In this document: one piece after another, positions 509 to 57,426 of the stretch | How the letters are laid out: every line of letters begins with the position of its first letter | Position numbering within the stretch: the first letter of the stretch is position 1 | Source: a phage | Assembly: GCA_012409925.1 (NCBI GenBank) | Contig: GCA_012409925.1_4804.1 | Length of the DNA: 60,053 nt | Strand: one strand, 5' to 3' | Program-made: the position numbers and the translations under genes | The notes under the pieces: generated by a model | Database searches by the model: none | Told to the model about the DNA's origin: nothing | The model's input: the letters and a program-made list of their open reading frames with translations, nothing else

Positions 509-514
509 AGTTCC

Positions 515-2511: not shown

Positions 2512-2568
2512 AGACTCCTTATATCTGATCAACAAATTATAATCTATAAGGAGTCTATAAGCAATATT

Positions 2569-3090: not shown

Positions 3091-3092
3091 AT

Positions 3093-29467: not shown

Positions 29468-30062
29468 GCCTGCCGCGCAGGAGTGTACTGCAAATTTCCT
29501 GTGGGTACAAAATAGTACGGTACTGTCTAGGACTTTTTCTTTGAAAGTTAGTGGACCAAATGTGTCGTATTTTGATTAGTGTACCGCAAATTCCATCAAG
29601 TACCAAAACGCACCAAAAGACCCATGCCATAAAAACCACACGAACGCAATAATCAATCGCCGTTACAGTTTCCAGCGTTACAATTCGAAAGCGAATGATT
29701 CGACGCATAATAATATGAAGCATAATGATTCGAAAGCGAACGATTGCGTGTAGGATAATATCGGTGGGGATTATTCTAGATGCATGTAATTTCGCATGCG
29801 TACTATTTTCGGACGAAGGGTCGGCATATTCCTCGTTTTAGTTCGGAACGAAGGGAAAGTTTTGCGCCTTTATAAAACAACGACTTACGCGACCCGCCCT
29901 AACGGTCCGATATAGGTGTCTATATAAAACAAGGACTTACACGATGTTCTCCATTTAACGTAATACCTGTTATGCGAACTAAGGCGCATCTCGACGAAGA
30001 TTATGCGACGACGAAGGGAAGGATAAAGGAGTTTTCGCGGAGAAGCGCATCGAGATAGGGAC

Positions 30063-30088
30063 GAAGAAAAGCCGCGACTAAGCGCGGC
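30063..30088 (-). terminator. rho-independent terminator ending the minus-strand island operon
   Basis: On minus strand GCCGCG-cttagt-CGCGGC followed by TTTTCTTC. Confidence 0.5.
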
Positions 30089-30114
30089 CTATTAGTAACG
30101 GTGGGTAATTATAA

Positions 30115-30324
30115 TTAAAGGAATAATCCGGCGCGTTTAATTTGTCCCAGGACGTTATCGCGCTTACGACGCATAACCGCGTATTTAACCTCTTCTTCGT
30201 ATCCCCAGCCGCCGATGGATAACATCGCGTTCATATTATCGCATAATTCCTTAAGTTCGCGGAACATATCGATGACGGCGGTACGATGGGCGCGCGCATT
30301 AAGAGAGTTATTCATATTATTCAT
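30115..30324 (-). CDS. small protein, 69 aa
   Basis: ORF track; GGAG RBS overlapping stop of upstream gene; TAA stop. Confidence 0.5.
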   Translation of the reverse strand: MNNMNNSLNARAHRTAVIDMFRELKELCDNMNAMLSIGGWGYEEEVKYAVMRRKRDNVLGQIKRAGLFL

Positions 30325-30335
30325 TTTTCTTCTCC

Positions 30336-30626
30336 TTAAAGGCTTACGATTTTAAAGAAAGTTACTTCGCCGCCGAGTTGCGGGACAGCGATATATTCGC
30401 CGCCGATTTCGGTAATCGTATAGACGAAGCCGTTGATGGTTACGCGGTAGGATACTACGTCCTCGTCGCGATACTTGTAAAGGTCGAGGAGGTTGATCGG
30501 CTCATAAATAGACTCGATAGTCGCGTCTACGTTAGAGAGATAAACGCTCTCTAAGGTTTCGCCAAATACGTTAGAGTTTTCGGAAGTCTCGACGCGAGCG
30601 GAACGGATAGCGGCTAAAGTAATCAT
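30336..30626 (-). CDS. small acidic protein, 96 aa, paralogue of 31262..31546
   Basis: ORF track; AGGAG RBS; net charge about -10; no His/Cys/Trp; shares VY..NVD.TIE and VN.NG(Y/F)...EIG segments with the divergently transcribed paralogue. Confidence 0.6.
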   Translation of the reverse strand: MITLAAIRSARVETSENSNVFGETLESVYLSNVDATIESIYEPINLLDLYKYRDEDVVSYRVTINGFVYTITEIGGEYIAVPQLGGEVTFFKIVSL

Positions 30627-30693
30627 AATAATCTCCTAGCTGGGAGGGCGGGTAGCGACCTATTCGCTACCTCATCCCCTCTCGATATAAAAC

Positions 30694-30722
30694 ATTATAG
30701 TCTTAGTGTACGAAGAAGTAAA
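30694..30722 (-). promoter_or_regulatory. near-consensus sigma70-type promoter (island copy 1)
   Basis: Minus strand reads GTGCTTTACT-17 nt-TATAAT; -35 at 30717-30722, -10 at 30694-30699. Confidence 0.55.
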
Positions 30723-30733
30723 GCACTTTTTCG

Positions 30734-31036
30734 TTATTCTGCGATAAAATATTTATAAGCCTTATCGCCTTCTACGTCGATATACTCGACGATAATTAAC
30801 GCTTCGCCGCGCGGCGTAACCGTCTCGATAAGGGTAACGGCTTCGTCGTCGGTCTTCGCGAATCGGATTGCGCTACGTTCGGCGTATTTAATTTCGTCGA
30901 AGGAGAGGCCGACGAAAGCGACGGCGCGGACCTTAATGGCGCTAGATTCTAGTTCCGCGTTAACGGCGGCGATAAGAGAGCGAACGGTTAAGCGGTCTTC
31001 GTCGTAAGTAAGGATAGAAGAGATTAAAGTGGTCAT
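30734..31036 (-). CDS. small acidic protein, 100 aa
   Basis: ORF track frame; start at ATG 31036 (GGGAG RBS); no His/Cys/Trp/Gln; TAA stop. Confidence 0.55.
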   Translation of the reverse strand: MTTLISSILTYDEDRLTVRSLIAAVNAELESSAIKVRAVAFVGLSFDEIKYAERSAIRFAKTDDEAVTLIETVTPRGEALIIVEYIDVEGDKAYKYFIAE

Positions 31037-31093
31037 AATAAAACTCCCGATGCTATTAGAAGGAAGGGCCATCGCCCGTCTCGATATAAACAA

Positions 31094-31121
31094 GTATACG
31101 CGAGTGTACGAAGAAGTAAAG
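31094..31121 (-). promoter_or_regulatory. near-consensus sigma70-type promoter (island copy 2)
   Basis: Minus strand reads CTTTACT-16 nt-TATACT with the same TTCTTCGTACAC spacer core as copy 1. Confidence 0.5.
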
Positions 31122-31165
31122 AAAAAAAGATAAAATAATTTATCGCATTTTTATCGAAAAAGTGC

Positions 31166-31193
31166 TTTACTTTTTTCTACACTATATTATAAT
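31166..31193 (+). promoter_or_regulatory. near-consensus sigma70-type promoter (island copy 3)
   Basis: AGTGCTTTACT-16 nt-TATAAT; -35 at 31166-31171, -10 at 31188-31193; shares GTGCTTTACT and TACACT with copies 1 and 2. Confidence 0.55.
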
Positions 31194-31261
31194 GTACTCA
31201 TATCGGGACGGGATGAGTTAACGAATAGGTCGTTAACGCCTCTCCCAACTAGGAGTTTAAA

Positions 31262-31546
31262 ATGGCTATTCTTAACGTTTCTTCTATCCGTAACGCTATC
31301 GTCGAGAACTACGGCGTAAAACAAATTTTATCCGAAGTCTACGCCGCGAACGTAGACCAAACTATCGAGGCGGGTGGGGTAACGGTCGCCGAGGCTTTTA
31401 AACTTTACGCGGCGTTACCGGAATCGGACCGCGAAGCCTTCGAAGTAAACGTTAACGGATATTTCTTCGAAGCGGTCGAAATCGGTAATATCTTACTCGT
31501 TATGGGCGAAGAAGAATTTGAGACCTTCTCCCTCGTCGAAGCGTAA
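31262..31546 (+). CDS. small acidic protein, 94 aa, paralogue of 30336..30626
   Basis: ORF track; AGGAG RBS; net charge about -15; no His/Cys/Trp. Confidence 0.6.
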   Translation: MAILNVSSIRNAIVENYGVKQILSEVYAANVDQTIEAGGVTVAEAFKLYAALPESDREAFEVNVNGYFFEAVEIGNILLVMGEEEFETFSLVEA

Positions 31547-31626
31547 GAGAGGATTTTTAGAGCGTCGTGCGCGGCGCTTTAATAAAATTCTTTCGCGCCT
31601 AGCGCCCTAACAAATAGGAGTTTATT

Positions 31627-32253
31627 ATGGTTAGCTTAAATCGTTTCTCGACTAGCGGCGACGTTATCGCAACTAAGACCGCCGACCTCGTTGCATTTTA
31701 TAATGCAAATTCCGGTTCGAAGCCGATTAAGAAATTTGCGGACCGCCGGACCGCCGAGACTCGCGTAATCGCGTTAATCGAGTCCTTAAACGCGCTCGAT
31801 GAGCCATCCAATGAATCGCCCATTCCCGACGCGAAGCCGCGCGAGGAAGTGTCCAGCGATGTAAAAACGCATAAGGCGCGTGCGGTCGTTAAAAAGGCTG
31901 AGCCGACCCAGGAAGAACTCGACGCGATGAGCGATGAAGAATATGAAGCCTTCGTTAAGAGCGGCTTAAACGATAGTGCAAATTGCGTAGTACAAAATGG
32001 AACTCCTTCCCATCGCCGTTCGAATAGCGAAGGTATTGCAAAAAGTTGGGATAATAAGGAAGTGGCGCAAAAGCGTCTTACCCGTAACGGCGTTATGGTC
32101 GAGGGTGTAGGCGAGTTCAAATCGGTCCGCGCAGCATTCGCCGCGCTGGGCTTACCGGACAGCAAGCATATTCGCTTCCGCATGAAGCTTAAAGAAGCTG
32201 GACGCTTGAACTTCGAGTTCGGCAACAAGTCCTTCACCTTCCAGATTATCTAA
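31627..32253 (+). CDS. hypothetical protein, 208 aa
   Basis: ORF track; AGGAG RBS; composition switches mid-gene from the island dialect to ordinary coding. Confidence 0.5.
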   Translation: MVSLNRFSTSGDVIATKTADLVAFYNANSGSKPIKKFADRRTAETRVIALIESLNALDEPSNESPIPDAKPREEVSSDVKTHKARAVVKKAEPTQEELDAMSDEEYEAFVKSGLNDSANCVVQNGTPSHRRSNSEGIAKSWDNKEVAQKRLTRNGVMVEGVGEFKSVRAAFAALGLPDSKHIRFRMKLKEAGRLNFEFGNKSFTFQII

Positions 32254-47803: not shown

Positions 47804-47961
47804 TGTTGACGTAAATTTACGAAAAATAAAACTGAAAATCAGTTTAATTAAAGTGGCATTGCCGCCATAGTTTTTAGTTGCTACTGGCGGCGACTGAAGG
47901 CATAATTAAGTTATCCCAAACGGGGAATATAAATAAACTAATTTATTTAAGGACTGTGAAT

Positions 47962-48801
47962 ATGGCCGAAGCAATCAAAGTATTATCTAAAGAAGAAAAA
48001 CAAGCAGCTGCAGCAGAACGTCGTCGCGTGGCTGAAGAAAAACGTCTGGCTAAAAAGAAAGAAGCCGAAGAGAAGCGCCAGAAGCGCGAGCAGGAAAAAC
48101 AAGCCAAGCGTGAAGAAGCTGCGCTGAAGCGCAAACAGGCTGCTGATGAGAAGGCTCAGAAGCGTGCTGAAGAAGCAGCGAAGAAAGCCAAAGAGCGTGC
48201 TGAAAAGGCTGCTGCTAAGAAGGCAGAGCGTGAAGCCGCTAAAGCAGCGAAAGAAATTGAAAAGGCTAAAGCTAAAGAAGAAGCCAAGCGTCTGAAAGCA
48301 GAGCAGGCTGCTGCCAAGAAAGCAGAGCGTGATCAAGCCCGTGCTGCAGCGAAGGCCGAAAAAGAGAAGGCCAAAGAAGAAGCTAAAGCGAAACGCAAAG
48401 CAGAGCGTGAAGCTGCTAAGATTGCGGCGAAAGAAGCTGCGGAAAAGCAGAAAGAACAGCGTAAGAAAGAAGCTGAAGAACGTCGCAAAGCCATCGCAGA
48501 GCGCAAGGCTGCTAAAAAGGCAAACGGTCAGCGTCGTGCAAAAGCCACTCACTTCATCTACACTGGCAATGGCCTGAGCCAGCCGCAAGAGCATTCCACC
48601 CGTGGACGCGTTCTGGCGGCGATCAAAGAAGGCGAAGTTGGCGTGGCGCAGTCTATCGATGAGCTGGGAGAGAAAGTTAAAGATCAACTGTTTGGCGCTT
48701 CCGTTCGCTCCTACCTGAGCAAGCTGGAAGAGATGGGCCACATCGAGTTTGTCGATGTTGAATCCAACGACGATGCCGAAGACGGTGATCAAGCGGAATA
48801 A
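47962..48801 (+). CDS. K/A/E/R-rich low-complexity protein with globular C-terminal ~90 aa
   Basis: ATG 47962 (AAGGA RBS) in track ORF 47878..48801; ~200 aa of EEKRLAKKKEAEEKRQKRE-type repeats; acidic C-terminal tail. Confidence 0.55.
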   Translation: MAEAIKVLSKEEKQAAAAERRRVAEEKRLAKKKEAEEKRQKREQEKQAKREEAALKRKQAADEKAQKRAEEAAKKAKERAEKAAAKKAEREAAKAAKEIEKAKAKEEAKRLKAEQAAAKKAERDQARAAAKAEKEKAKEEAKAKRKAEREAAKIAAKEAAEKQKEQRKKEAEERRKAIAERKAAKKANGQRRAKATHFIYTGNGLSQPQEHSTRGRVLAAIKEGEVGVAQSIDELGEKVKDQLFGASVRSYLSKLEEMGHIEFVDVESNDDAEDGDQAE

Positions 48802-48829: not shown

Positions 48830-48858
48830 GACCCACACTTGTTGTGGGTCTTTTTTCG
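48830..48858 (+). terminator. rho-independent terminator
   Basis: GACCCACA-cttgt-TGTGGGTC followed by TTTTTTCG. Confidence 0.65.
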
Positions 48859-48935: not shown

Positions 48936-49931
48936 ATGAACATGAAACAACCTGTAATGATTATCGGCGGCGGTTTGGCAGGACTTATCACGGCTTGTCA
49001 CTTTCCGAACTCTATTGTGTACGAAGCAGGCGAACGCGTCGCGCAGCACAAGGCGCTGCTACGATTTCGCGGCGAAGAAGTAAGCCGTATTACCGGAATC
49101 CCCTTTAAGGCCGTGACAGTCGATAAGGCTGTGTATTTTCGTGGCAACTACTATCACGACCACTGCCCGATTAACCTTGCCAACATGTACTCTATGAAAG
49201 TCACCAACCAGTTTGGCAGCCGCTCAATCATGAAGCTTCAAACTGCTACGCGCTACATAGCGCCGGATGACTTTTATGATCAACTTGTCGATAAACTGGG
49301 TGACCGTATATTCTTTAATACTCCGGTCGACACGCTTTGCGGCTATAGCGAGACGCCAATCATCAACACATCGCCGCTGCCAGTCATGATGAAGCTTGCT
49401 GGTATTGATCAAAAGCTCGACTTCTCGTTTGATAAGGCAAATATTCGCGTTTATCGTTTTAAGATTAAGCGCAAGTGTGAACTTTATCAAACAATTTACT
49501 TCCCTGACTATTCTGTAAGGACTTACCGCGCATCAATCACTGGTGACACGCTGATCATTGAAACAATTCCATTGGTAAGCGTCAGCGCGGCAGCAGTTGA
49601 AGCCGCTGGCGGCATTACCCGTTATCGCGACATGAAGCTGCGTGCAGAAGTGGATGAAGTTCTTACCGCTTTTGGTCTTTCATGGAATGACATCTCTTTG
49701 GAAGAAGTTGAAAAGGTTGACCAGAAGTATGGCAAAATTGTCGACATTCCGAAAGACTTGCGCCACGCCTTACTGCTCCAGTTGACTATGGATTTGAACG
49801 TATTTAGTGTCGGTCGATTCGCTACTTGGCGAAACATTTTGCTTGATGACGTCGCTCATGACCTTGCTGAAGTTGAAAAACTCATCAAAGCAAATAACTA
49901 TCAAAAATTTGCTTATATTGCTAATAAATAA
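48936..49931 (+). CDS. FAD/NAD(P)-binding Rossmann-fold oxidoreductase, 331 aa
   Basis: N-terminal dinucleotide-binding fingerprint MKQPVMIIGGGLAGL; family not resolved. Confidence 0.5.
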   Translation: MNMKQPVMIIGGGLAGLITACHFPNSIVYEAGERVAQHKALLRFRGEEVSRITGIPFKAVTVDKAVYFRGNYYHDHCPINLANMYSMKVTNQFGSRSIMKLQTATRYIAPDDFYDQLVDKLGDRIFFNTPVDTLCGYSETPIINTSPLPVMMKLAGIDQKLDFSFDKANIRVYRFKIKRKCELYQTIYFPDYSVRTYRASITGDTLIIETIPLVSVSAAAVEAAGGITRYRDMKLRAEVDEVLTAFGLSWNDISLEEVEKVDQKYGKIVDIPKDLRHALLLQLTMDLNVFSVGRFATWRNILLDDVAHDLAEVEKLIKANNYQKFAYIANK

Positions 49932-49996
49932 TTTGCTTTCTGCTTCAATGGGCGTATACTTTAATCATTGAAGCAGAACTCATAGAGGAAACGAAA

Positions 49997-50443
49997 ATGA
50001 AACGCATCACTGGAATCGCGCTTGCCGCGACTGCTATTCTCGGAACCATGTATATGGAAGCGACTGAAGCCGCTGTCCGTACTTCCGATTCAATCGCTGT
50101 TTACGATTGCGAAGCGATGGACGGCAAGACCGCAGCGACGACTGGCGCAACAATTACCACTTACATCGGTGTGAACGAGCAAGAAGGTCTGAATATTCAG
50201 ATTCAGGGATTCACCGGAAAAGGTGCCAACCGGACTCCGTGGATGCAGCGTTTCACTTTCGTTCAGCCTCGTTCAACTGGCGGCTTTATTAACCTGATTG
50301 GGGAAAACCGTTCTGGTGCAGAAATCTTTACATCAATGAGTTCTAATAATGAACCAAAGAAAAGTTTTCAGTTGCTTTATAACGCACAATTCGTTTATCA
50401 TTGCACCTTCTCTGGTGATCAGCAACTAGTGAATTACCGTTAA
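49997..50443 (+). CDS. secreted/periplasmic protein, 148 aa
   Basis: N-terminal signal-peptide-like MKRITGIALAATAILGTMYMEA; two Cys in mature part. Confidence 0.45.
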   Translation: MKRITGIALAATAILGTMYMEATEAAVRTSDSIAVYDCEAMDGKTAATTGATITTYIGVNEQEGLNIQIQGFTGKGANRTPWMQRFTFVQPRSTGGFINLIGENRSGAEIFTSMSSNNEPKKSFQLLYNAQFVYHCTFSGDQQLVNYR

Positions 50444-50456
50444 TAGGATAATTAAA

Positions 50457-51260
50457 ATGAAAGTTGAATTAATTCGATACACCCAAGATGCACTTGACCT
50501 TTTGCTGGAAACAAAGAACACGCGCATGATTGGTAAGCCAGTCTCTGAGATGACAGAATCAGAGAAGCAAGAGCACTGGCGCTACATGCTTGATACAATC
50601 AAGTCGCCTTTTGACTTTGTGGACTATATCTTTGACATCACTGATGTATCAAAGAATATGACTCATCAGATGGTGCGCACACGCACAGGTGCATATCAAG
50701 AACGCACAAGCCGCGCTCAGGAGTCGTCAGCATTTGATGCGATTCGTCCTGCCAAATTTACTTACCCAGAGGATGATCCAAAGGGATGGACTCGTCATGA
50801 CGAGAAGGCTGCTGAACTGGCAGAGAAATGGGATGATGCAATGGCAACCATTGACGCCCTATACCAAGAACTTCGCGCGGCTGGCGCAGAGATTCAAGAT
50901 GCACGTGCCGTGTTGCCTTCTAATATGCAAACGCATATCATGGCAAAGTTCAACTTGCGCACGCTGCAGCAGATGGCGTCAAACCGCTTGTGCACGCGCA
51001 CCCAAGGCGAGTATCAAGAAGTATTCCGCGCAATGGTTGCGGAAGTCCTCAAGGTGCACCCGTGGGCAAATCCACTATTACAGCCGCAATGCATCGGTAT
51101 GGGTAAATGCGCGTTTCCTCGTCATGGCAAAGCCCATTGCCCTTGGTATCGTGATTGGATGGATACCACGGCACAGCAAGAAGAGTTGCGCATCCAGTTT
51201 TGGAGTGCAATGCCAATCACCAACAATCCAGTTGCTAAAGATGGAGTATCAAAAGGATGA
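50457..51260 (+). CDS. thyX: divergent flavin-dependent thymidylate synthase (ThyX)-like protein
   Basis: ...MTHQMVRTRTGAYQERTSRAQES... and ...ARAVLPSNMQTHIMAKFNLRTLQQMASNRLCTRTQGEYQEV... align with ThyX signature blocks, but RHR is RTR and a Cys-rich C-terminal tail is appended. Confidence 0.55.
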   Translation: MKVELIRYTQDALDLLLETKNTRMIGKPVSEMTESEKQEHWRYMLDTIKSPFDFVDYIFDITDVSKNMTHQMVRTRTGAYQERTSRAQESSAFDAIRPAKFTYPEDDPKGWTRHDEKAAELAEKWDDAMATIDALYQELRAAGAEIQDARAVLPSNMQTHIMAKFNLRTLQQMASNRLCTRTQGEYQEVFRAMVAEVLKVHPWANPLLQPQCIGMGKCAFPRHGKAHCPWYRDWMDTTAQQEELRIQFWSAMPITNNPVAKDGVSKG

Positions 51261-52132
51261 GCATTAAAAACAGCGAAATCTTAAACGTATTCGACCTTGA
51301 CGGAACGCTGTTTGATGACCGTTGGCGCTTAGACCGCATCAAGGTGGCAGGTCCGTTGTCAGACTATGATGACTATCACAGCGGTATTGGTTATGATCAG
51401 TTCTATCCTCACATTGCATCAGCAGTAGAGTCGGCATCTCTTCGCGGTGAGGCGGTTGAATATTGGACTGCAAGGCCAGAAAAATACAGACAAGTGACTT
51501 TTGAACGTCTAGACAATGTTTTCCCTTTTGATGAATTTACAATCAAGATGAGAGACTATGGCGACAAACGTCCATCAACTATTATGAAATCTGCATGGCT
51601 ATCGCACGCTTTGCGGCACGGCGATTATCGAATCATCAATGTATTCGACGACCGACAAGACGTACTCGCGCGGATGCAAGAAGAAGCTTTGCACTATAAT
51701 TCCATGGCGCAAAATAAAATCGCCTTTACATTTAATCTTTGCAAGGCAGGTGAAGTGGTGCAACAATTAGCAGTTGATCCAAGTGCAACAGGGAAAGAAG
51801 AGACTAAACTTGTTGAAGTTGAACAACAAGCCCCAGCAACCGCTGCTGATATTCTTGATGCGATGGCCGCGACCTTCCGTGAGCGCAATGCCGTTTATGG
51901 CGATAACGCTGTGATGGTAGGTCAGGTTATGCAGGTGTTGTTCCCTAATGGCGTAACTTTGAAGACACCGGAAGACTACCACATGTGGCATCTGTTCGAG
52001 CTTAAGATTGTCAAGCTTACACGCTTCGCAATCAGCGGCCTGAAGCACGAAGACTCAATACACGACGATGGTGTTTATAGCGCCATGTGTGAACGTCTTG
52101 TTAACACCCATAATATTAATTTCAATAAATAG
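51257..52132 (+). CDS. HAD-superfamily phosphatase-like protein
   Basis: N-terminal motif I ...VFDLDGTLFD...; ATGA overlap with ThyX-like gene. Confidence 0.55.
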   Translation: MSIKNSEILNVFDLDGTLFDDRWRLDRIKVAGPLSDYDDYHSGIGYDQFYPHIASAVESASLRGEAVEYWTARPEKYRQVTFERLDNVFPFDEFTIKMRDYGDKRPSTIMKSAWLSHALRHGDYRIINVFDDRQDVLARMQEEALHYNSMAQNKIAFTFNLCKAGEVVQQLAVDPSATGKEETKLVEVEQQAPATAADILDAMAATFRERNAVYGDNAVMVGQVMQVLFPNGVTLKTPEDYHMWHLFELKIVKLTRFAISGLKHEDSIHDDGVYSAMCERLVNTHNINFNK

Positions 52133-52161
52133 TTTACTTGTGCGTTTCGATGAGTTATATT
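52133..52161 (+). promoter_or_regulatory. candidate sigma70-type promoter with conserved hairpin/leader (copy A)
   Basis: TTTACT, 17-nt spacer, TATATT; spacer and leader GATGAGTTATATTTACCTCATCGAAACGAA nearly identical to element at 58976-59006. Confidence 0.45.
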
Positions 52162-52197
52162 TACCTCATCGAAACGAAGTCCAAAAAGGATAAATAA

Positions 52198-52881
52198 ATG
52201 AAAAAAGTAATTGTTGTAACAGGTTCCAATTCCGGTCTTGGTAAATCTATTTTTGACACCCTTGGCGCTTACGGTCATAACGTGCTTGGCATCGATTCAG
52301 CATACGGACATGACGTCCGCGATGCTAAACAGATGAAAGAAATTTTAAGCCCATATGATGTTGAAGGCTTGATCAACTGTGCTGGTGTCAACTCTAACAA
52401 TTGGTTTGAAGATGTAAACTATGAAGAGTTTAACCGCGTTATGCACACCAACGCATTCTCTTTCGTTAACACGACTCAGGCTGCGCTGAAAAGTCTTATC
52501 GACAACAAAGGCTTTGTGATCAACATCGTTTCCAACGCTGCGCATATTCCTATGACGTCCAGCTTGTGTTATAATGCATCCAAGGCCGCTGCGCTTATGA
52601 TCAGCAAGCAGATGGCTCACGAACTTACGCCTAAGTACGGCATCACGGTATTCTCTATTAGTCCTAACAAGTTACGCGGCACTGGCATGTCTAAACAGAT
52701 TGAAGATGCCGTTTGTGCGACTCGCGGCTGGACTCCTGAATACGCTGCTGAATACCAGAAAAAGGCATTGATGAACGGATTGGAGACTGAGCCGCAAGTA
52801 ATTGCTGACTTCATTCGCCATATCTTAATTACGGGCGCATGGCGCTTTATGTCTGGTACTGATATTCCATTTGGTAAATAA
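52198..52881 (+). CDS. short-chain dehydrogenase/reductase (SDR)
   Basis: Cofactor motif VVTGSNSGLGKS and catalytic Y-x3-K (YNASKAA); 227 aa. Confidence 0.65.
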   Translation: MKKVIVVTGSNSGLGKSIFDTLGAYGHNVLGIDSAYGHDVRDAKQMKEILSPYDVEGLINCAGVNSNNWFEDVNYEEFNRVMHTNAFSFVNTTQAALKSLIDNKGFVINIVSNAAHIPMTSSLCYNASKAAALMISKQMAHELTPKYGITVFSISPNKLRGTGMSKQIEDAVCATRGWTPEYAAEYQKKALMNGLETEPQVIADFIRHILITGAWRFMSGTDIPFGK

Positions 52882-52971
52882 ATCAAGAACATTTGAAGTT
52901 GTCGCTGCTCCTGAAAAACAGGACGAAGACAACACAGTAATTAATCAATAATATTTAATTAAGGAAACAAA

Positions 52972-53523
52972 ATGCCACATTTTAAAATTGAACAAATCGC
53001 CCTGTCAATTCCAGGTGCTCAGCGCGCACAGAATTTCCTGGCTAAAATCGGCCTGACAGAATGGTTCCATGATCACGTTGTTGCTACTGGTCGCGTATTT
53101 GAAGCTGATGTCTTTAAGGGTCAGCGCGGCGATTGCACCAACGAAGCTGACTTGCGCTTCAACTATCAGGCTGGCAACGGCACCGATGGCGGCGCTGGTA
53201 AGCCTCTTGAGCTTGAAATTCTTGACTATACAAAAGGTTGCAACTGGATTCACGAAAACATCGAATACATCGATGCGCACGACAATCAGGTTAGCCATCT
53301 TGGTATGCACGTGACTGCCGCTGAACTTGCTGAATGGCGCAAGTTCTTTAAAGAAGAAGGCATTCAGGTTGCGCAGGAAGTTGTGACCGACTCTCACACC
53401 AACCCAAACATTGCTGGTCAGCGTCGTTACAACTATGTGATCTTTGATACGCGTGAAATCATTGGTGTCGACCTTAAGTTCATCGTGCGGTTGAATCAAG
53501 ACGGTACTCCGTACACTGTATAA
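52972..53523 (+). CDS. hypothetical protein, 183 aa (VOC/glyoxalase-like candidate)
   Basis: ORF track; weak resemblance to vicinal-oxygen-chelate fold (HxGxxV, conserved Glu); low confidence. Confidence 0.3.
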   Translation: MPHFKIEQIALSIPGAQRAQNFLAKIGLTEWFHDHVVATGRVFEADVFKGQRGDCTNEADLRFNYQAGNGTDGGAGKPLELEILDYTKGCNWIHENIEYIDAHDNQVSHLGMHVTAAELAEWRKFFKEEGIQVAQEVVTDSHTNPNIAGQRRYNYVIFDTREIIGVDLKFIVRLNQDGTPYTV

Positions 53524-53539
53524 CGAATCGTGAATCTGT

Positions 53540-53565
53540 GGCCGTCCTAATGGGCGGCCTTTTTG
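53540..53565 (+). terminator. rho-independent terminator
   Basis: GGCCGTCC-taat-GGGCGGCC followed by TTTTTG. Confidence 0.55.
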
Positions 53566-53577
53566 TAGGAGGCTAAT

Positions 53578-54120
53578 GTGTTATTTCTCCCTTATGACTT
53601 CGAAACAACCGGATTGACCGTGCACCCGAAAGCGCCGCTTGGGATGCAGCCGCGCCCTATTGAATTTGCAGGCCTGTTGACAGACGGCAAAGAGATTATT
53701 GAAACGTTTGAATTCATAATTAATCCTGAAATCGTGATTGAAGAAATTATCACAAAGATTACCGGATTAACAAATGAAGACCTTGAGTGCAATCCACCGT
53801 TCATCAATTTCGTCCCGCAGCTAAAAGAAATCTTCAAGAAGACTGATGCAACTATCGCGCACAACCATGCGTTCGATAAAAACATTCTTGATTATGCACT
53901 ACAGCGCGAAGGACTTACGCTTGATGATGTTAATTTTCCAGAAATAAACATATGTACAGTTGAGCAAACCTTGCCTATTTTTGGCCGAAGAGTTAAGCTT
54001 CAAGAGCTGTATGAATTATATTTCGGAAAATATGAACAGAAACACCGTGCATTAGACGACGTAATATTACTGCACAAAGTCTGCCAACAAATTGGCGTAT
54101 ATGACATCTGGAGTAAATAA
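53578..54120 (+). CDS. DnaQ-like 3'-5' exonuclease (DEDDh)
   Basis: GTG start with GGAGG RBS; Exo I YDFETTG, Exo II AHNHAFD, Exo III HRALDD. Confidence 0.75.
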   Translation: MLFLPYDFETTGLTVHPKAPLGMQPRPIEFAGLLTDGKEIIETFEFIINPEIVIEEIITKITGLTNEDLECNPPFINFVPQLKEIFKKTDATIAHNHAFDKNILDYALQREGLTLDDVNFPEINICTVEQTLPIFGRRVKLQELYELYFGKYEQKHRALDDVILLHKVCQQIGVYDIWSK

Positions 54121-57017
54121 TGTTTCCACAATTGAGAGTTCGCAGCGGTTACACGTTCAAAGAAGTTTATGGACGGCATCCTGAAATTATAGCACGGCTC
54201 AAAGAGTTGGGCTGCGAAGTCGCGGCATTAGTTGATAACAACACATGGGGTCACGTTCGCTGGGAAAAGGAATGCCAGAAAAATGATATTAAGCCTATGT
54301 TTGGGATGGAGATTCCAATCATCGACCCTGATGCGGACCCTAAAAAGGGATTCAAACCGAAGGCTTGGATATTGGCCCTTGACTTAAAATCTTTTTACAA
54401 TGCTACAACACTTTCAACGCAGCGCGGTGGGCTTACCCGTGCAGAGTTCGGTGCGCTCGATGGCGTCGTTAAATTCTGTGGCGGTGCCGTGGAGTTGCTG
54501 CGGCCAGAGGACTACGACTATATAGACGTCAACCCATCATCGTTCCTTTTGGCAAAGCGCCAGGCATTGGCTCATCGTAGCAGTGGAAGGCCGCTGGTTT
54601 TAACCGGATACAATCACATGCCTTCTCCTGAGCACGTTGACTTCGCTTATGCTTGGGAAGTGCGCGACACGGTCAAGCCGCACTGCATCGTTGACGCGGA
54701 AGACTTGCGCAAACAGCTTAAAGGCATCTTGACTGAAGATGAGCTCAATCAGGCAACGGCCAATGCTGTTGACATAGCAAACGGCATAGTCGGACTTGAC
54801 CTGAAATTGCGTAAGGCACCGATTATTCACCTTGCTGGTGACATGGTAAAGCTTGCGCGTGAGGGGATGGAGTACCGTCTAAAAGCAGGTCACATCAAAG
54901 AATGGACTCAGGAATATGAGGACCGCTTCAACGAAGAAATTCACCAGATTCAGCTGAAAGATTTCGACTCATACTTTCTGGTAGTAGCAGACCTTGTACG
55001 ATTCGCAAAAACAAAAATGCTCGTCGGTCCTGCTCGCGGCTCATCGGCTGGTTCACTTGTTTGCTATTGCCTCGGCATCACGGAAGTGGACCCAATCCCG
55101 TATAAGCTGCTGTTTGCCCGATTCATCGACGTAAGTCGCGCCGACCTTCCTGACATCGACATCGACTTTGAAGATACCAAACGCTATATGGTGTTTGATT
55201 ATCTTAAAGAGAAATACGGCGAAATGAACGTTGCAAAGCTTGGCAACATCAACACGCTTAAGGCCAACTCAGTAATGGCTCAAGTTGGTAAGAAGTTCAA
55301 CATTGGATACCACGAAACAGCCAACATTAAAAACGCACTGCTTGAATACTCATCCGGTGACGCCCGTTATGGTCACGGCCTGGAGGATACCTTTGCAACA
55401 ACGACCACGGGTCAAGAGTTCGTGGCTAAATATCCTGATGCCGCGCGTTGCATGGGTGACCTTGAGATTCACCCGTCCCACACAGGTGTTCACGCAGCGG
55501 GAATCATTGTGTGTAATGACCCAATCTCTGATTACTGTACTGTAACTGCAGAAGGGATTGCGCAAATCGATAAGCCTGACAGCGAATACCTAAACCTTTT
55601 GAAGCTTGATGCGCTGGGCCTTCGTACTCTCGGCATTATTTCTGATACAGGCGTTATTGATGCTGAAACGCTCTACGGAATCAAGCTTGATGATCAAAGC
55701 GTCCTTGACATTCTTAACGAAAACAAGATGTCAGGCATCTTCCAGTTTGAAGGTGATGCTGTACGCTCAGTAACAAACTTTGTTCACGTCGATAACTTTA
55801 ACAAAATCGACAACCTGACAGCTTTGGGTCGACCTGGCCCGTTGTCATCCGGTATGGCCCAGAAATACATTGAACGCGCGGCAGGGCGTGCGCCGATTGA
55901 ATACGACGTGCCGCAGCTTGAGCCGTACTTAAAAGAGACTTACGGCGTGTTTCTTTACCAAGAGCAAATCATGGCCGTGGTTAAAGAGATTGGTTCATTT
56001 GACTGGGCGAAAACGTCCGCTGTACGTAAGGCGATGTCAGGCCGTAAGGGTGAAGAATACTTTAACAAGCTTGGCGAAGACTTCGTTGCAGGAGCAATAA
56101 ATAACGGTGTACCGGAAGCGGATGCAAGAAAGCTTTGGCAAGCGATGGCCACGTTCGGGTCATGGGGCTTTAACAAGTCACACTCCGTGTCATACGCGGT
56201 CGTGACCTACTGGACATTGTGGCTTAAGCGACACTACCCGTTGGAATTTGCCGCAGCCTGCTTACGCGCTGCTAAGGACGAAGACCAGACGATTGCGATA
56301 TTACGTGAACTTGCGAAGGAAGGCGTGGATTACGTTCCAATCGACCCTGATCACTCTTCGATGAACTGGACCATCGCGAACGGAAAGCTAATCGGCGGCA
56401 TCATGAACGCGAAAGGGTACGGAATGGTGAAGGCGATGAAGTATATCGAAGCACGTGAAGCCGGAACCTTAACGCAAAAGCAAAAGGATGCATTGGCCAA
56501 TGCTGAAGTTAAATACGGCGACCTTACAGAGATGCACACCAAGTTCGGCTGGGCATATAATGACCCCTATCTGATTGGCGTTACTTCCGGTGCTTCAATA
56601 CGCCAGATGAAGGAAGTCGGCGATGACGAGCGCGCAATAGTAATCGGCAAGTTGACCAAGAAAGTGCTGGCAGACGAGAACGAAGCAACACGCATCCGTA
56701 AACGTCTTGAGCGCGGCATTTATACAAAGCACGGCAAACTTAAAAAGGGTCTTCAAGCTGATGGCCGCTACGCAGAGTTTGACCAGTATGGAAACAAGCT
56801 TGAGACTCAGTTCATCGACCTTATGTGCAAAGACGACTCGACCGACTCGCCAATGCGCTTCAGGATTCGTCCAGAGAAGTTCCAGAAGTACGGGAAGTAC
56901 ATCGCTGAAAACGTCGGGAACGGCGCATTCTTCCTGATGAAAGGTCGTAAGCTTGAAGGCATTGACATGTTCATCGTTGACGTGATCAAACAGGTGTATC
57001 CAGATGGCAACAAATAA
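54120..57017 (+). CDS. dnaE: DnaE-type (family C) DNA polymerase catalytic subunit
   Basis: 965 aa; palm motifs ...GPARGSSAGSLVCYCLGITEVDP... and ...FARFIDVSRADLPDIDIDFE...; N-terminal PHP-like LRVRSGYTF lacks canonical His residues. Confidence 0.8.
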   Translation: MFPQLRVRSGYTFKEVYGRHPEIIARLKELGCEVAALVDNNTWGHVRWEKECQKNDIKPMFGMEIPIIDPDADPKKGFKPKAWILALDLKSFYNATTLSTQRGGLTRAEFGALDGVVKFCGGAVELLRPEDYDYIDVNPSSFLLAKRQALAHRSSGRPLVLTGYNHMPSPEHVDFAYAWEVRDTVKPHCIVDAEDLRKQLKGILTEDELNQATANAVDIANGIVGLDLKLRKAPIIHLAGDMVKLAREGMEYRLKAGHIKEWTQEYEDRFNEEIHQIQLKDFDSYFLVVADLVRFAKTKMLVGPARGSSAGSLVCYCLGITEVDPIPYKLLFARFIDVSRADLPDIDIDFEDTKRYMVFDYLKEKYGEMNVAKLGNINTLKANSVMAQVGKKFNIGYHETANIKNALLEYSSGDARYGHGLEDTFATTTTGQEFVAKYPDAARCMGDLEIHPSHTGVHAAGIIVCNDPISDYCTVTAEGIAQIDKPDSEYLNLLKLDALGLRTLGIISDTGVIDAETLYGIKLDDQSVLDILNENKMSGIFQFEGDAVRSVTNFVHVDNFNKIDNLTALGRPGPLSSGMAQKYIERAAGRAPIEYDVPQLEPYLKETYGVFLYQEQIMAVVKEIGSFDWAKTSAVRKAMSGRKGEEYFNKLGEDFVAGAINNGVPEADARKLWQAMATFGSWGFNKSHSVSYAVVTYWTLWLKRHYPLEFAAACLRAAKDEDQTIAILRELAKEGVDYVPIDPDHSSMNWTIANGKLIGGIMNAKGYGMVKAMKYIEAREAGTLTQKQKDALANAEVKYGDLTEMHTKFGWAYNDPYLIGVTSGASIRQMKEVGDDERAIVIGKLTKKVLADENEATRIRKRLERGIYTKHGKLKKGLQADGRYAEFDQYGNKLETQFIDLMCKDDSTDSPMRFRIRPEKFQKYGKYIAENVGNGAFFLMKGRKLEGIDMFIVDVIKQVYPDGNK

Positions 57018-57426
57018 CCGTGAGCAGAAATACATATTCGTGCCTTTGAAGAAGCATTCAGAATCGGTATTGAAGCTTCAACGAATCGAGTCGATGACTG
57101 GTGATGGCGTGCCGGACGTAATCGGCACCAACCGGAAAGGGCGCGGCTTTTGGCTTGAAATGAAGTTCTTTGAATCGTGGCCTGCAAGGGCCACCACTGC
57201 ACCTTTCAGAAATGCATTTGAGAAAGGCCAGTGCAGCTTTCTTTCTTCGTGGAATGATTGGAAATACCCATCATTTGTTTTGCTTAAAGTCGATTCTGAG
57301 AAGATGTTTTATTTAGTCCACCCTTCTATTGAATTAAAGCGTTATAATACTGCAGACGTTCAACGTGAGATAATCGTGAAGGGAACTATTCATCACATCA
57401 TCAAGTATTTAGAGGAATTGTCATGA
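57004..57426 (+). CDS. VRR-NUC domain nuclease
   Basis: PD-(D/E)xK-type motifs ...GDGVPDVIG... and ...GFWLEMKF...; overlaps DnaE stop. Confidence 0.6.
   Translation: MATNNREQKYIFVPLKKHSESVLKLQRIESMTGDGVPDVIGTNRKGRGFWLEMKFFESWPARATTAPFRNAFEKGQCSFLSSWNDWKYPSFVLLKVDSEKMFYLVHPSIELKRYNTADVQREIIVKGTIHHIIKYLEELS

What the first reader, a model, noticed from the sequence alone, without database searches (positions are those of the whole stretch)
48936..53523. Cluster of metabolic enzymes next to the replisome genes: possible nucleotide/DNA-modification pathway
Six consecutive plus-strand genes encode a Rossmann FAD/NAD oxidoreductase, a signal-peptide protein, the ThyX-like enzyme, a HAD phosphatase (DLDGT), an SDR reductase (TGxxxGxG, YxxxK) and a VOC-like protein, directly upstream of DnaQ/DnaE. 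ThyX plus a nucleotidase is ordinary phage nucleotide metabolism, but the added oxidoreductase, SDR and VOC-like enzymes are not and could tailor a nucleotide or its sugar. This may connect to the CA/TG-avoiding island if a modification is context-dependent.
Basis: inference. Interest (0 to 1): 0.6.

Follow-up and report, generated by a model that had tools for sequence, protein, structure and literature searches.

The report
Candidate phage thymidine-hypermodification enzyme module
Five of these six genes form a phage-only enzyme set that always sits just upstream of the phage's own DNA polymerase; it is the best candidate for making the sugar-decorated thymine recently found in the DNA of related phages, and for explaining why this phage group resists most restriction enzymes.

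Summary
The window is a Wifcevirus (E. coli myophage). Positions 48936-53523 hold six + strand genes between two strong terminators, directly upstream of DnaQ/DnaE.

Five genes form a conserved, phage-exclusive module: a UGM/PPOX-fold flavoprotein, a divergent ThyX, a HAD-DUF6378 phosphatase, an SDR and a VOC-fold metalloenzyme. In 53 of 53 metagenomic viral loci holding the flavoprotein and DnaE, the order is flavoprotein - ThyX-like - HAD - [SDR - VOC] - DnaQ - DnaE. SDR and VOC were both present in 38, both absent in 14, and VOC alone in 1. Remote versions occur in actinophages. The signal-peptide gene is a Wifcevirus-only insert.

Published LC-MS shows that the related Pbunavirus carries a sugar-type hypermodified thymidine at TG, with no genes assigned. 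Wifceviruses resist restriction "without any known protection". I find they resist a system cutting CACAG (contains TG/CA) but are fully sensitive to AGACC (no TG/CA). Their terminal repeat also carries a 2.3-kb TG/CA-depleted island.

The module is therefore a strong but unproven candidate for a new thymidine-hypermodification pathway. The main rival is a self-contained dTMP-supply module. Virion DNA chemistry has not been tested.

The parts
48830..48850 (+). Intrinsic terminator closing the upstream unit; left border of the block
   Evidence: 8-bp stem with 5 GC pairs followed by a T run. A terminator is annotated at the same place in phage Mansfield.
48936..49931 (+). ORF1: phage-exclusive FAD/NAD(P) Rossmann flavoprotein (phrog_4828). 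UGM / protoporphyrinogen-oxidase / amine-oxidase fold. Invariant core member of the module.
49997..50443 (+). ORF2: small protein with a Sec-type signal peptide. A Wifcevirus-specific insertion, probably not part of the pathway.
   Evidence: No family hit. Found in only 3 of 53 module loci, all Wifcevirus.
50457..51260 (+). ORF3: divergent flavin-dependent thymidylate-synthase homologue (ThyX-like) with a Cys4 C-terminal extension
   Evidence: Pfam Thy1, 2e-30. Below the TIGR02170 cut-off, 82.7 < 87.9. Motif RTRTGAYQERTSR; the His53 region is deleted; Tyr91 is replaced by Ala. Among 68 module ThyX sequences the middle residue of RxR is never His, and the four Cys (179/212/218/228) are all present or all absent, 35 versus 33.
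51257..52132 (+). ORF4: two-domain protein. N-terminal HAD phosphatase of PNKP type (DxDxT). C-terminal ~100-aa DUF6378-like domain (about 51824-52132). Its start overlaps the ORF3 stop by 4 nt.
   Evidence: HAD_PNKP, 6e-8. phrog_4889, 8e-120. The C-terminal domain is a separate, highly conserved small ORF in many loci. 18 of 21 members hit Pfam DUF6378.
52198..52881 (+). ORF5: classical short-chain dehydrogenase/reductase. Optional module member, co-occurring with ORF6.
   Evidence: adh_short, 5e-31. Only generic FabG-like PDB matches. Co-occurrence with VOC: both in 38 loci, neither in 14, VOC only in 1.
52972..53523 (+). ORF6: VOC-fold (glyoxalase / methylmalonyl-CoA-epimerase-like), probably a metalloenzyme. 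Optional module member.
53540..53559 (+). Intrinsic terminator; right border of the block
   Evidence: 8-bp stem with 7 GC pairs followed by a T run. Annotated in Mansfield and MyoSmar at the same place.
53578..57017 (+). DnaQ-like exonuclease (53578-54120) and DnaE-like polymerase (54120-57017), the replicase that always follows the module
   Evidence: RNase_T, 3e-22. DnaQ and DnaE lie downstream in the same order in 53 of 53 loci.
29700..32000 (.). TG/CA-depleted island inside the direct terminal repeat. A possible read-out of TG-specific modification; not part of the gene cluster.
   Evidence: TG+CA odds ratio 0.33 versus 1.17 elsewhere; CG 2.15 and TA 1.26 are raised. Maps to about 1.5-3.8 kb of Mansfield, whose terminal repeat is 1-3673. 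The same feature sits at the left end of Serratia phage MyoSmar.

Best explanation
Leaving ORF2 aside, the block is a conserved, virus-only five-enzyme module coupled to the DnaQ-DnaE replicase. Its most likely job is to build a sugar-derived hypermodification on thymidine in the phage DNA. This is the kind of base (nucleosides of 362 and 390 Da, at TG) found by LC-MS in the related Pbunavirus.

Proposed roles, all inferred:

- The ThyX-like enzyme uses flavin N5-iminium chemistry to activate C5 of the pyrimidine. It has kept its dUMP- and FAD-binding arginines but lost the His53, His79 and Tyr91 equivalents. Its exocyclic-methylene intermediate would be captured by a sugar or polyol instead of being reduced. 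Alternatively, the enzyme alkylates dUMP reductively with an aldose.
- The ORF1 flavoprotein (UGM/PPOX fold) either supplies or recycles reducing equivalents, or opens and activates the sugar.
- The HAD phosphatase with its DUF6378 domain removes a phosphate from the nucleotide or sugar-phosphate intermediate.
- In the 'long' version present here, the SDR and the VOC metalloenzyme act as an oxidise/epimerise/reduce pair that tailors the sugar.

The product would shield TG-containing restriction sites. The step that gives TG specificity on DNA is not identified.
For: Shown:

1. Fixed gene order flavoprotein - ThyX-like - HAD/DUF6378 - [SDR - VOC] - DnaQ - DnaE in 53 of 53 IMG/VR loci, down to about 40% identity. 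Also in 6 MAG contigs, Cronobacter podophage Ss1 and a Rhizobium jumbo phage. Remote but colinear versions occur in Microbacterium and Gordonia actinophages.
2. The ORF1 family is absent from cellular genomes: 6 hits in 185,579 species, all on MAG contigs with the same module.
3. All 68 module ThyX sequences share active-site changes: RxR is never RHR, the Tyr91 position is Val or Ala, and the HGH loop is deleted. The protein scores below the NCBIfam ThyX equivalog cut-off.
4. Pbunavirus F8 and 14-1 DNA carries hypermodified thymidine replacing about a quarter of T at TG, described as sugar-alcohol and aldopentose derivatives. The authors stress that no known modification genes are present (PMC12191111).
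5. In Pbunavirus the only recognisable non-replication enzymes are the trio plus a MazG-like protein.
6. [quoted passage not shown]
7. I identified EcoCFT_II as CACAG. It is the only 5-mer giving 87 sites in Bas101 and 51 in Bas01. Raw efficiencies of plating for Bas98-100 are about 1 on CACAG (87-92 sites) and no plaques on AGACC (about 90 sites). CACAG/CTGTG contains TG/CA; AGACC/GGTCT does not.
8. A TG/CA-specific depletion island lies in the terminal repeat of Wifcevirus and Myosmarvirus. It is strong enough to strip C, W, H, Q and M from the encoded proteins: 4.1% versus 11.7%.

Precedents (PMC13326640): phage ThyA homologues are flavin-dependent 5-hydroxy-dCMP synthases, HAD phosphatases act in the sugar branch of DNA arabinosylation, and a genuine UGM serves DNA glycosylation in Rhizobium phage RL38J1.

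My hand arithmetic (inference): 5-hmdU 258.23 + tetritol 122.12 - 18.02 = 362.33. Equivalently, dU + pentose + 2H - H2O = 362.33, a ThyX-type reductive alkylation. 5-hmdU + pentose 150.13 - 18.02 = 390.34.
Against: - No chemical data exist for Wifcevirus DNA.
- TG specificity implies a DNA-level, sequence-reading step. None of the five proteins has a recognisable DNA-binding or base-flipping domain.
- No glycosyltransferase, NDP-sugar synthase, 5-hmU kinase or dioxygenase is annotated in Bas101, E217 or Mansfield.
- The ThyX-like protein keeps the residues that bind dUMP (R90, R147 and R174 equivalents). It is the only thymidylate synthase annotated in the closest annotated relative, Bas101 (window ORFs outside the block were not scanned), so it may simply make dTMP.
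- Resistance to EcoRI (30 sites) and EcoRV (14 sites), whose sites lack TG/CA, is not explained by a TG-only modification.
- Pbunavirus 14-1 and F8 and Xanthomonas phage FoX7 carry the module but no comparable TG/CA island.
- Microbacterium phage RikSengupta has flavoprotein-HAD-SDR-VOC but no ThyX in the cluster.
- ORF1 is not a UGM by sequence: none of 51 members hits Pfam GLF.
Confidence: 0.5

Rival explanations
1. Self-contained dTMP/dTTP supply module for very fast replication. The ThyX-like enzyme is a true thymidylate synthase. ORF1 is its dedicated flavin reductase or redox partner, compensating for the lost His53/NADPH site. The HAD-DUF6378 protein funnels nucleotides towards dUMP. 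SDR and VOC serve folate/pterin or redox upkeep. DNA is not modified by these genes.
For: - Pfam Thy1 at 2e-30, with conserved dUMP- and FAD-binding arginines.
- It is the only thymidylate synthase annotated in the closest relative, Bas101.
- It sits next to the replicase in every locus.
- The all-or-none Cys4 site could be an electron-transfer metal centre.
- Wifcevirus is reported to replicate extremely fast.
- Some SDRs are pteridine reductases (general knowledge, not tested here).
Against: - ThyX does not oxidise folate, so no reductase is needed for the folate.
- There is no role for a VOC metalloenzyme.
- It does not explain why the only unassigned enzymes in a phage group with proven T-hypermodification are exactly these.
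- It does not explain the CACAG versus AGACC restriction asymmetry.
- The RikSengupta variant keeps the flavoprotein, HAD, SDR and VOC without a ThyX in the cluster.
Confidence: 0.27
2. Small-molecule counter-defence or host-takeover metabolism: the enzymes make or destroy a nucleotide-derived signal, cofactor or sugar unrelated to the phage DNA.
For: - PHROGs files the SDR as 'moron, auxiliary metabolic gene and host takeover'.
- Flavoprotein, SDR, VOC and phosphatase are typical small-molecule enzymes.
- There are no hits to known modification families.
Against: - Accessory and counter-defence genes are usually variable. This set is fixed in order and tied to DnaQ/DnaE across very distant phages.
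- ThyX is an invariant partner.
- PADLOC was not searched, so no known defence or counter-defence family was tested against it.
Confidence: 0.1
3. Unrelated genes that happen to be neighbours: an ordinary ThyX and nucleotidase plus independently acquired morons.
For: ORF2 is indeed an unrelated, lineage-specific insertion. Gene names in public records are generic.
Against: - 53 of 53 loci are colinear, and SDR and VOC nearly always occur together or not at all.
- The module is conserved into actinophages.
- The ORF3 stop and ORF4 start overlap by 4 nt.
- The unit is flanked by terminators.
Confidence: 0.04

Closest known systems
Hypermodified thymidine of Pbunavirus F8 and 14-1 (Yee et al. 2025, bioRxiv 10.1101/2025.03.31.646159 / PMC12191111)
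   Same: These are related myophages. They share the flavoprotein (39% identity), the ThyX-like enzyme (49%), the HAD-DUF6378 protein and the DnaQ/DnaE genes in the same order. TG is the modified context there. TG/CA is also the dinucleotide singled out in the Wifcevirus terminal repeat and in its restriction pattern.
   Different: Pbunavirus has the short module, without SDR and VOC, and no TG/CA island. F8 is cut by EcoRI, whereas Wifcevirus plates normally on EcoRI and EcoRV hosts. No genes were assigned in that work, and no chemistry exists for Wifcevirus.
5-hmdU-based thymidine hypermodification (Lee et al. 2018 PNAS, PMC5889632; 2021 NAR, PMC8989533)
   Same: Partial, context-biased replacement of T by bulky C5-methyl-substituted derivatives that block restriction. 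A thymidylate-synthase homologue sits at the start of the pathway. Flavin enzymes take part in the tailoring.
   Different: That pathway uses a ThyA-type dUMP hydroxymethylase, a 5-hmU DNA kinase and aGPT-pyrophosphorylase transferases, with amino acids or polyamines as adducts. None of these is annotated here. The synthase homologue here is ThyX-type, and the adducts reported in relatives are sugars.
Glycosylated 5-hydroxycytosine pathway of RB69, DLP3 and RL38J1 (Lee et al. 2026 NAR, PMC13326640)
   Same: A thymidylate-synthase homologue is repurposed with a flavin cofactor. A HAD phosphatase acts in the sugar branch. A UGM is used for DNA glycosylation in RL38J1.
Canonical flavin-dependent thymidylate synthase ThyX (e.g. 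T. maritima TM0449)
   Same: Thy1 fold. R78, R80, E86, R90, R147, N163, R165 and R174 equivalents are kept.
   Different: The His53 loop is deleted. His79 is replaced by Thr/Ser/Asn, Ser83 by Ala/Ser, Ser88 by Thr and Tyr91 by Ala/Val. Half the family has a Cys4 C-terminal extension. The protein is always paired with a dedicated flavoprotein.
MnmE/MnmG and TrmFO (flavin-iminium methylene transfer to uridine C5 in tRNA)
   Same: A mechanistic analogy only: flavin N5=CH2 transfer to C5 of uracil, followed in MnmEG by capture of the methylene by a nucleophile, giving a 5-(X-methyl)uridine (PMC10723064, listed).
   Different: Unrelated folds for the methylene carrier, tRNA as substrate, and amine nucleophiles. 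No homology is claimed.
Base J (JBP1/2 thymine hydroxylase + glucosyltransferase)
   Same: The end product is a sugar on the thymine methyl group, made on DNA in a subset of positions.
   Different: Fe/2-oxoglutarate dioxygenase plus glycosyltransferase. Neither is annotated in the closest relatives.

Membership tests
ThyX (flavin-dependent thymidylate synthase, Pfam PF02511 / TIGR02170) | Match to the Thy1 domain above Pfam's gathering score | tested here: met
   106.4 bits against a cut-off of 24.8; E = 2e-30; residues 6-203.
ThyX (flavin-dependent thymidylate synthase, Pfam PF02511 / TIGR02170) | Score above the NCBIfam equivalog cut-off (same function expected) | tested here: not met
   82.7 bits, below the cut-off of 87.9.
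ThyX (flavin-dependent thymidylate synthase, Pfam PF02511 / TIGR02170) | Signature motif RHRxxSxxxxSxR, plus His53 and Tyr91 (T. maritima numbering) | tested here: not met
   The motif here is RTRTGAYQERTSR. The HGH loop is deleted and Tyr91 is Ala. Across 68 module sequences His is never found at position 79 and Tyr never at 91.
ThyX (flavin-dependent thymidylate synthase, Pfam PF02511 / TIGR02170) | dUMP-phosphate and uracil-binding arginines (R90, R147, R174) | tested here: met
   All three align with conserved Arg residues.
ThyX (flavin-dependent thymidylate synthase, Pfam PF02511 / TIGR02170) | Catalysis of dUMP + CH2-THF + NADPH to dTMP | not testable with these tools
   Needs an enzyme assay or thyA complementation.
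UDP-galactopyranose mutase (Glf) | Sequence membership (Pfam GLF / NCBIfam UGM model) | tested here: not met
   No hit for ORF1. None of 51 family members hits GLF even at E <= 10. No PDB sequence match.
UDP-galactopyranose mutase (Glf) | Three-domain UGM fold as the clear best structural match | tested here: inconclusive
UDP-galactopyranose mutase (Glf) | Conserved UDP-binding Arg/Tyr residues of the active site | not tested
   No residue-level structural alignment was available.
VOC superfamily (glyoxalase I / methylmalonyl-CoA epimerase / extradiol dioxygenase) | Paired beta-alpha-beta-beta-beta modules forming the VOC fold | tested here: met
VOC superfamily (glyoxalase I / methylmalonyl-CoA epimerase / extradiol dioxygenase) | Metal ligands on strands beta-1, beta-4, beta-5 and beta-8 | tested here: inconclusive
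   Invariant Q8, E80/E82, H109/H113 and D167 lie on exactly those strands. Geometry and metal were not examined.
HAD phosphatase, PNKP-type | DxDxT motif I and a match to HAD_PNKP | tested here: met
   FDLDGT at residues 12-17; 33.4 bits against a cut-off of 27.6.
HAD phosphatase, PNKP-type | Associated polynucleotide kinase domain, as in T4 Pnk | tested here: not met
   No kinase domain. The second domain is DUF6378-like. It shows no similarity to the phage's MazG-like protein.
Classical SDR | TGxxxGxG cofactor motif, YxxxK catalytic motif, adh_short match | tested here: met
   TGSNSGLG, YNASK; 108 bits.
Classical SDR | FabG (3-oxoacyl-ACP reductase) equivalog | tested here: not met
   Best NCBIfam scores are 60-82 bits against cut-offs of 215-300.
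Known 5-hmdU thymidine-hypermodification pathway | ThyA-type dUMP hydroxymethylase, 5-hmU DNA kinase, aGPT-Pplase transferase | not tested
   None is annotated in the closest complete genomes Bas101, Mansfield and E217. I did not scan every window ORF against these families.
Phage DNA hypermodification in general | Non-canonical nucleoside in virion DNA | not testable with these tools
   Shown only for the relatives F8 and 14-1. For Wifcevirus the evidence is indirect: the restriction pattern and the TG/CA island.

The most novel reading that the evidence does not exclude
The ThyX-like enzyme, working with the ORF1 flavoprotein, is not a thymidylate synthase. It is a new kind of flavin-dependent pyrimidine C5 'glycityl/alkoxymethyl' transferase that attaches a sugar-derived unit to dUMP or to thymine/uracil in DNA. 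HAD-DUF6378, SDR and VOC finish the sugar. This would be a glycosyltransferase-free route to sugar-modified DNA, spread over hundreds of phages of Gram-negative and Gram-positive hosts. It would be the genetic basis of the Pbunavirus TG-hypermodification and of Wifcevirus restriction resistance.
Probability: 0.25. Interest if true: 0.95.

Novelty: new variant of a known kind. Interest (0 to 1): 0.78.

Why it matters
Pbunaviruses are among the most used therapeutic Pseudomonas phages, and their DNA was shown only in 2025 to be hypermodified. The genes responsible are unknown. Wifceviruses resist restriction for no known reason. This analysis names a small, testable gene set shared by both groups and by hundreds of other phages.

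It predicts:
- the chemistry: a sugar on the thymine methyl group;
- a phenotype: loss of CACAG/TG-site protection on deletion;
- an unusual enzymology: a ThyX homologue paired with a UGM-fold flavoprotein, with no glycosyltransferase.

If confirmed, it would add a new biosynthetic logic for DNA hypermodification. It would also provide markers to predict modified genomes from sequence, which matters for phage therapy, for sequencing artefacts and for type IV/END nuclease defences. It could supply new enzymes for making modified DNA.

Tried and rejected
- **PDB sequence searches.** ORF1, ORF4 and ORF6 gave nothing significant. A profile search with the DUF6378-like domain gave only chance hits.
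- **ORF1 as a genuine UGM.** Rejected at sequence level. No GLF hit in 51 members. The fold match is shared with PPOX and amine oxidases.
- **DUF6378 domain as MazG-like.** This lead came from memory. hhalign against the phage's own MazG-like protein gave probability 0.5%. The test is weak and the lead is not supported.
- **Cellular homologues of ORF1 that could reveal a known pathway.** Only 6 MAG contigs were found, all carrying the same phage module.
- **Mapping the 362 versus 390 Da difference between F8 and 14-1 onto the module.** The HAD-DUF6378 protein looked most divergent (79% identity). The divergence lies almost entirely in an acidic low-complexity linker, so it is uninformative. 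No other enzyme domain was found in 10 unassigned 14-1 proteins.
- **TG/CA island as a general correlate of the module.** Rejected. It is absent in 14-1, F8 and FoX7.
- **Correlation between the ThyX Cys4 site and the presence of SDR+VOC.** None found.
- **Published gene assignments for the Pbunavirus modification.** Literature searches found none.
- **TG-only modification as the full explanation of Wifcevirus restriction resistance.** EcoRI and EcoRV sites lack TG/CA, yet efficiencies of plating are about 0.3-1.7. This remains unexplained.

Full report
**What the window is.** The 4.6-kb stretch is 92-96% identical over its full length to 29 genomes of the genus Wifcevirus: E. coli/Shigella myophages such as WFC, WFH, ECML-117, Mansfield and BASEL phages Bas98-101. 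The window is most of one such genome.

**Checking the observation.**
- ORF1 (48936-49931) has a GxGxxG N-terminus and no Pfam or NCBIfam hit. It matches the unknown-function family phrog_4828 end to end.
- ORF2 (49997-50443) has a Sec-type signal peptide and no family.
- ORF3 (50457-51260) is a Thy1/ThyX domain protein (E = 2e-30).
- ORF4 (51257-52132) starts with the HAD motif FDLDGT and matches the PNKP-type phosphatase domain.
- ORF5 (52198-52881) is a classical SDR (TGSNSGLG, YNASK).

DnaQ and DnaE follow immediately. The two strongest intrinsic terminators of the region bracket the block at 48830-48850 and 53540-53559. Curators annotated terminators at the same places in Mansfield and, for the downstream one, in MyoSmar. 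The ORF3 stop and ORF4 start overlap by 4 nt.

**The flavoprotein.** ORF1 has 1919 homologues of 300-335 aa in the large protein collection, mostly on 60-73-kb contigs. It has matches in 362 phage records, 292 of them Pseudomonas phages (mostly Pbunavirus), plus Serratia, Pantoea, Xanthomonas, Burkholderia, Rhizobium, Vibrio and Cronobacter phages. A scan of one genome for each of 185,579 bacterial and archaeal species found six hits. All are MAG contigs carrying the same phage module. The family is effectively virus-only.

**Synteny.** I fetched 80 IMG/VR loci with an ORF1 homologue and searched them for the neighbours. Every one of the 53 loci that also reached DnaE had, on the same strand and in the same order: ORF1, ThyX-like, an ORF4 homologue, DnaQ, DnaE.
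- 38 also had SDR followed by VOC between ORF4 and DnaQ.
- 14 had neither, and one had VOC only.
- ORF2 occurred only in the three Wifcevirus loci.

The short form is that of Pbunavirus (E217: gp67, gp61, gp59, then exonuclease and polymerase). Cronobacter podophage Ss1 has ORF1 and ThyX as overlapping genes upstream of DnaE. A 206-kb Rhizobium phage has ORF1, ThyX and a HAD hydrolase within 6 kb.

Remote but colinear versions exist in actinophages:
- Microbacterium phage RikSengupta: FAD protein, phosphatase, SDR, VOC homologue, an ORF4-like protein, DnaE.
- Microbacterium phage OverHedge: FAD protein, ThyX-like, gp54, DnaE. The FAD protein matches the ORF1 profile at 92% hhalign probability, through the family-specific LTGxPF motif.
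- Gordonia phage Ranch: FAD-binding protein, hydrolase, SDR, DnaE, MazG-like, ThyX.

This is not a chance neighbourhood. Flavoprotein + ThyX-like + HAD is the core. SDR + VOC are an add-on that almost always comes or goes as a pair.

**The ThyX-like protein is atypical.** It scores below the NCBIfam equivalog cut-off (82.7 < 87.9). Aligned with T. maritima ThyX, it keeps R78, R80, E86, R90, R147, N163, R165 and R174. The loop carrying His53 is deleted, and the signature RHRxxSxxxxSxR reads RTRTGAYQERTSR.

In 68 distinct ThyX sequences from ORF1-containing loci:
- the middle residue of RxR is Thr (55), Ser (12) or Asn (1), never His;
- the Tyr91 position is Val or Ala, never Tyr.

Four cysteines (179, 212, 218 and 228) are either all present (35) or all absent (33). 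That points to a metal or Fe-S site. It does not correlate with SDR/VOC presence.

**ORF4 has two domains.** The last ~100 residues are the best conserved part. In many loci they are a separate 108-126-aa gene placed just before the SDR. Eighteen of 21 members hit Pfam DUF6378. Nothing is known about this domain. A profile search of the PDB gave nothing, and it shows no similarity to the phage's MazG-like protein.

**Literature that changes the picture.**
- Humolli et al. (PLoS Biol 2025, PMC11990801) isolated Wifceviruses Bas98-101. [quoted passage not shown] The exception is EcoP1_I, which is puzzling because EcoCFT_II has a similar number of sites.
- Yee et al. (bioRxiv 2025, PMC12191111) showed that Pbunavirus F8 and 14-1, until then thought unmodified, carry a hypermodified thymidine replacing about a quarter of T. 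Enzymes whose sites contain TG do not cut. [quoted passage not shown] The authors stress that such phages lack known modification genes.
- Later papers citing this work do not assign genes.
- In annotated Pbunavirus and Wifcevirus genomes, the only enzyme-like genes outside replication, packaging and lysis are this module and a MazG-like pyrophosphatase.
- Lee et al. (NAR 2026, PMC13326640) give precedents. Phage ThyA homologues are flavin-dependent 5-hydroxy-dCMP synthases. HAD phosphatases act in the sugar branch. A genuine UGM serves DNA glycosylation.

**A new reading of the BASEL data.** Table S2 lists for Bas101: 7 EcoKI, 2 EcoCFT_I, 30 EcoRI, 14 EcoRV, 87 EcoCFT_II and 90 EcoP1_I sites. 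My counts reproduce every known site. Among all 5-mers, only CACAG gives 87 in Bas101 and 51 in Bas01, so EcoCFT_II recognises CACAG.

The raw plating data show efficiencies of about 0.6-1.5 on EcoCFT_II and no plaques at all on EcoP1_I for Bas98-100. CACAG/CTGTG contains two CA and two TG. AGACC/GGTCT contains none. The asymmetry that puzzled the authors is what a TG-specific thymine modification predicts.

It does not explain everything. EcoRI and EcoRV sites have no TG/CA, yet plating is about 0.3-1.7. Either the context is broader in Wifcevirus or a second mechanism exists.

**The TG/CA island.** TG+CA has an odds ratio of about 1.17 across the window. It drops to 0.33 between about 29.7 and 32.0 kb, with individual 200-nt windows down to 0.08. 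CG (2.15) and TA (1.26) rise, and other dinucleotides are unchanged.

The four small genes in the island encode proteins depleted in Cys, Trp, His, Gln and Met, whose codons contain TG or CA: 4.1% versus 11.7%. Bas101 has the same island. By alignment to Mansfield, it occupies roughly 1.5-3.8 kb, inside the PhageTerm-defined direct terminal repeat (1-3673). WFC and WFH have a terminal repeat of about 3.7 kb. Serratia phage MyoSmar, which has the long module, shows the same depletion at 1-1750 of its 3559-bp terminal repeat.

Pbunavirus 14-1 and F8 and Xanthomonas phage FoX7 show nothing comparable. So the island is real, specific and conserved in two genera, and TG/CA matters to these phages. 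It is not a universal companion of the module. One inference is that the island is a stretch that stays unmodified and so avoids the one context that modification would protect. I could not test this.

**Mechanism (inferred).** My hand arithmetic:
- 5-hmdU + tetritol - H2O = 362.33. The identical formula results from dU + pentose + 2H - H2O, a ThyX-type reductive alkylation.
- 5-hmdU + pentose - H2O = 390.34.

Both readings place a sugar-derived unit on the carbon that ThyX chemistry installs. A ThyX that has lost His53, His79 and Tyr91 but keeps its dUMP and FAD contacts, always partnered with a sugar-mutase-fold flavoprotein, could deliver the C5 methylene for capture by a sugar hydroxyl. 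This is analogous to nucleophile capture in MnmEG. Alternatively, it could use an aldose as the carbon donor. The HAD domain would remove a phosphate. SDR + VOC would form a dehydrogenase/epimerase pair tailoring the sugar in the long version.

The weak point is TG specificity. It requires a DNA-level reader that I cannot identify among these proteins.

**Rivals.**
- The main rival is a self-sufficient dTMP-supply module, in which ORF1 is the reductase of a His53-less ThyX. It fits the adjacency to the replicase. It leaves VOC, the restriction pattern and the orphan Pbunavirus modification unexplained.
- Counter-defence metabolism and chance neighbourhood are less likely, given the synteny.

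**Verdict.** The module is a new variant of a known kind, phage DNA hypermodification with unprecedented enzyme content. It is proposed, not proven. Confidence is about 0.5 for the modification role and about 0.27 for plain dTMP supply.

Noticed in passing
window 29700-32000: A 2.3-kb island where TG and CA are about 3.5-fold depleted (odds ratio 0.33 versus 1.17) while CG and TA are enriched. It holds four small divergent genes whose proteins are poor in Cys, Trp, His, Gln and Met. It lies inside the ~3.7-kb direct terminal repeat and is conserved in Bas101 and, at the genome end, in Serratia phage MyoSmar. It is absent in Pbunavirus 14-1 and F8 and in Xanthomonas phage FoX7.
   Followed up: partly
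window 30336-30626 (-) and 31262-31546 (+): Two divergently transcribed ~95-aa proteins in the island look like paralogues. Shared pattern: IR.A.VE...VY..NVD.TIE...V.(I/V)NG...EIG. Local BLOSUM62 alignment score 88.
   Followed up: partly
window 50457-51260 (ORF3), Cys179/212/218/228: In 68 ThyX-like sequences the four cysteines are all present (35) or all absent (33). This perfect covariation suggests a Zn or Fe-S site in a C-terminal extension unknown in canonical ThyX.
   Followed up: partly
window 51824-52132 (C-terminal part of ORF4): A ~100-aa DUF6378-like domain, better conserved than the HAD domain it is fused to. It is encoded as a separate small gene in many related loci. Its function is unknown.
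   Followed up: partly
window 47878-48801 (+): A strongly Lys/Ala/Glu-rich repeat protein (AKKAEREAAK-type, histone-H1-like composition; AT skew 0.33) with a distinct C-terminal domain. It lies between its own terminators just upstream of ORF1, and a homologue sits in the same position in most myophage loci.
   Followed up: no
Bas101 (L009+L010) and Bas01 (L101): The recognition site of the type III system EcoCFT_II, not given in the papers' text, can be deduced as CACAG. It is the only 5-mer giving the published site counts in both genomes (87 and 51). The window has 78 CACAG and 73 AGACC sites.
   Followed up: yes
BASEL raw data (PMC11990801, supplementary file 8) for Bas98-100: Wifceviruses plate at about 0.3-1.7 on EcoRI and EcoRV hosts despite 30-38 and 8-14 sites that contain no TG/CA. 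A TG-only modification cannot explain this, so a second protection mechanism or a broader modification context is implied.
   Followed up: no
window 57004-57426 and 57423-58946 (+): DnaE is followed by a small phrog_2165 protein (weak Holliday-junction-resolvase similarity) whose start overlaps the DnaE stop, then a 507-aa helicase annotated as UvsW-like in Mansfield. Upstream lie a Dda-like helicase and, on the opposite strand, a RepB-type primase. This is the conserved replication module in which the enzyme block is embedded.
   Followed up: no
L005 (Microbacterium phage RikSengupta) 12029-13105: A GT2-family glycosyltransferase lies just downstream of the split DnaE in an actinophage that has the flavoprotein-HAD-SDR-VOC set. 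No glycosyltransferase is annotated in the Wifcevirus or Pbunavirus relatives examined (Bas101, Mansfield, E217).
   Followed up: no
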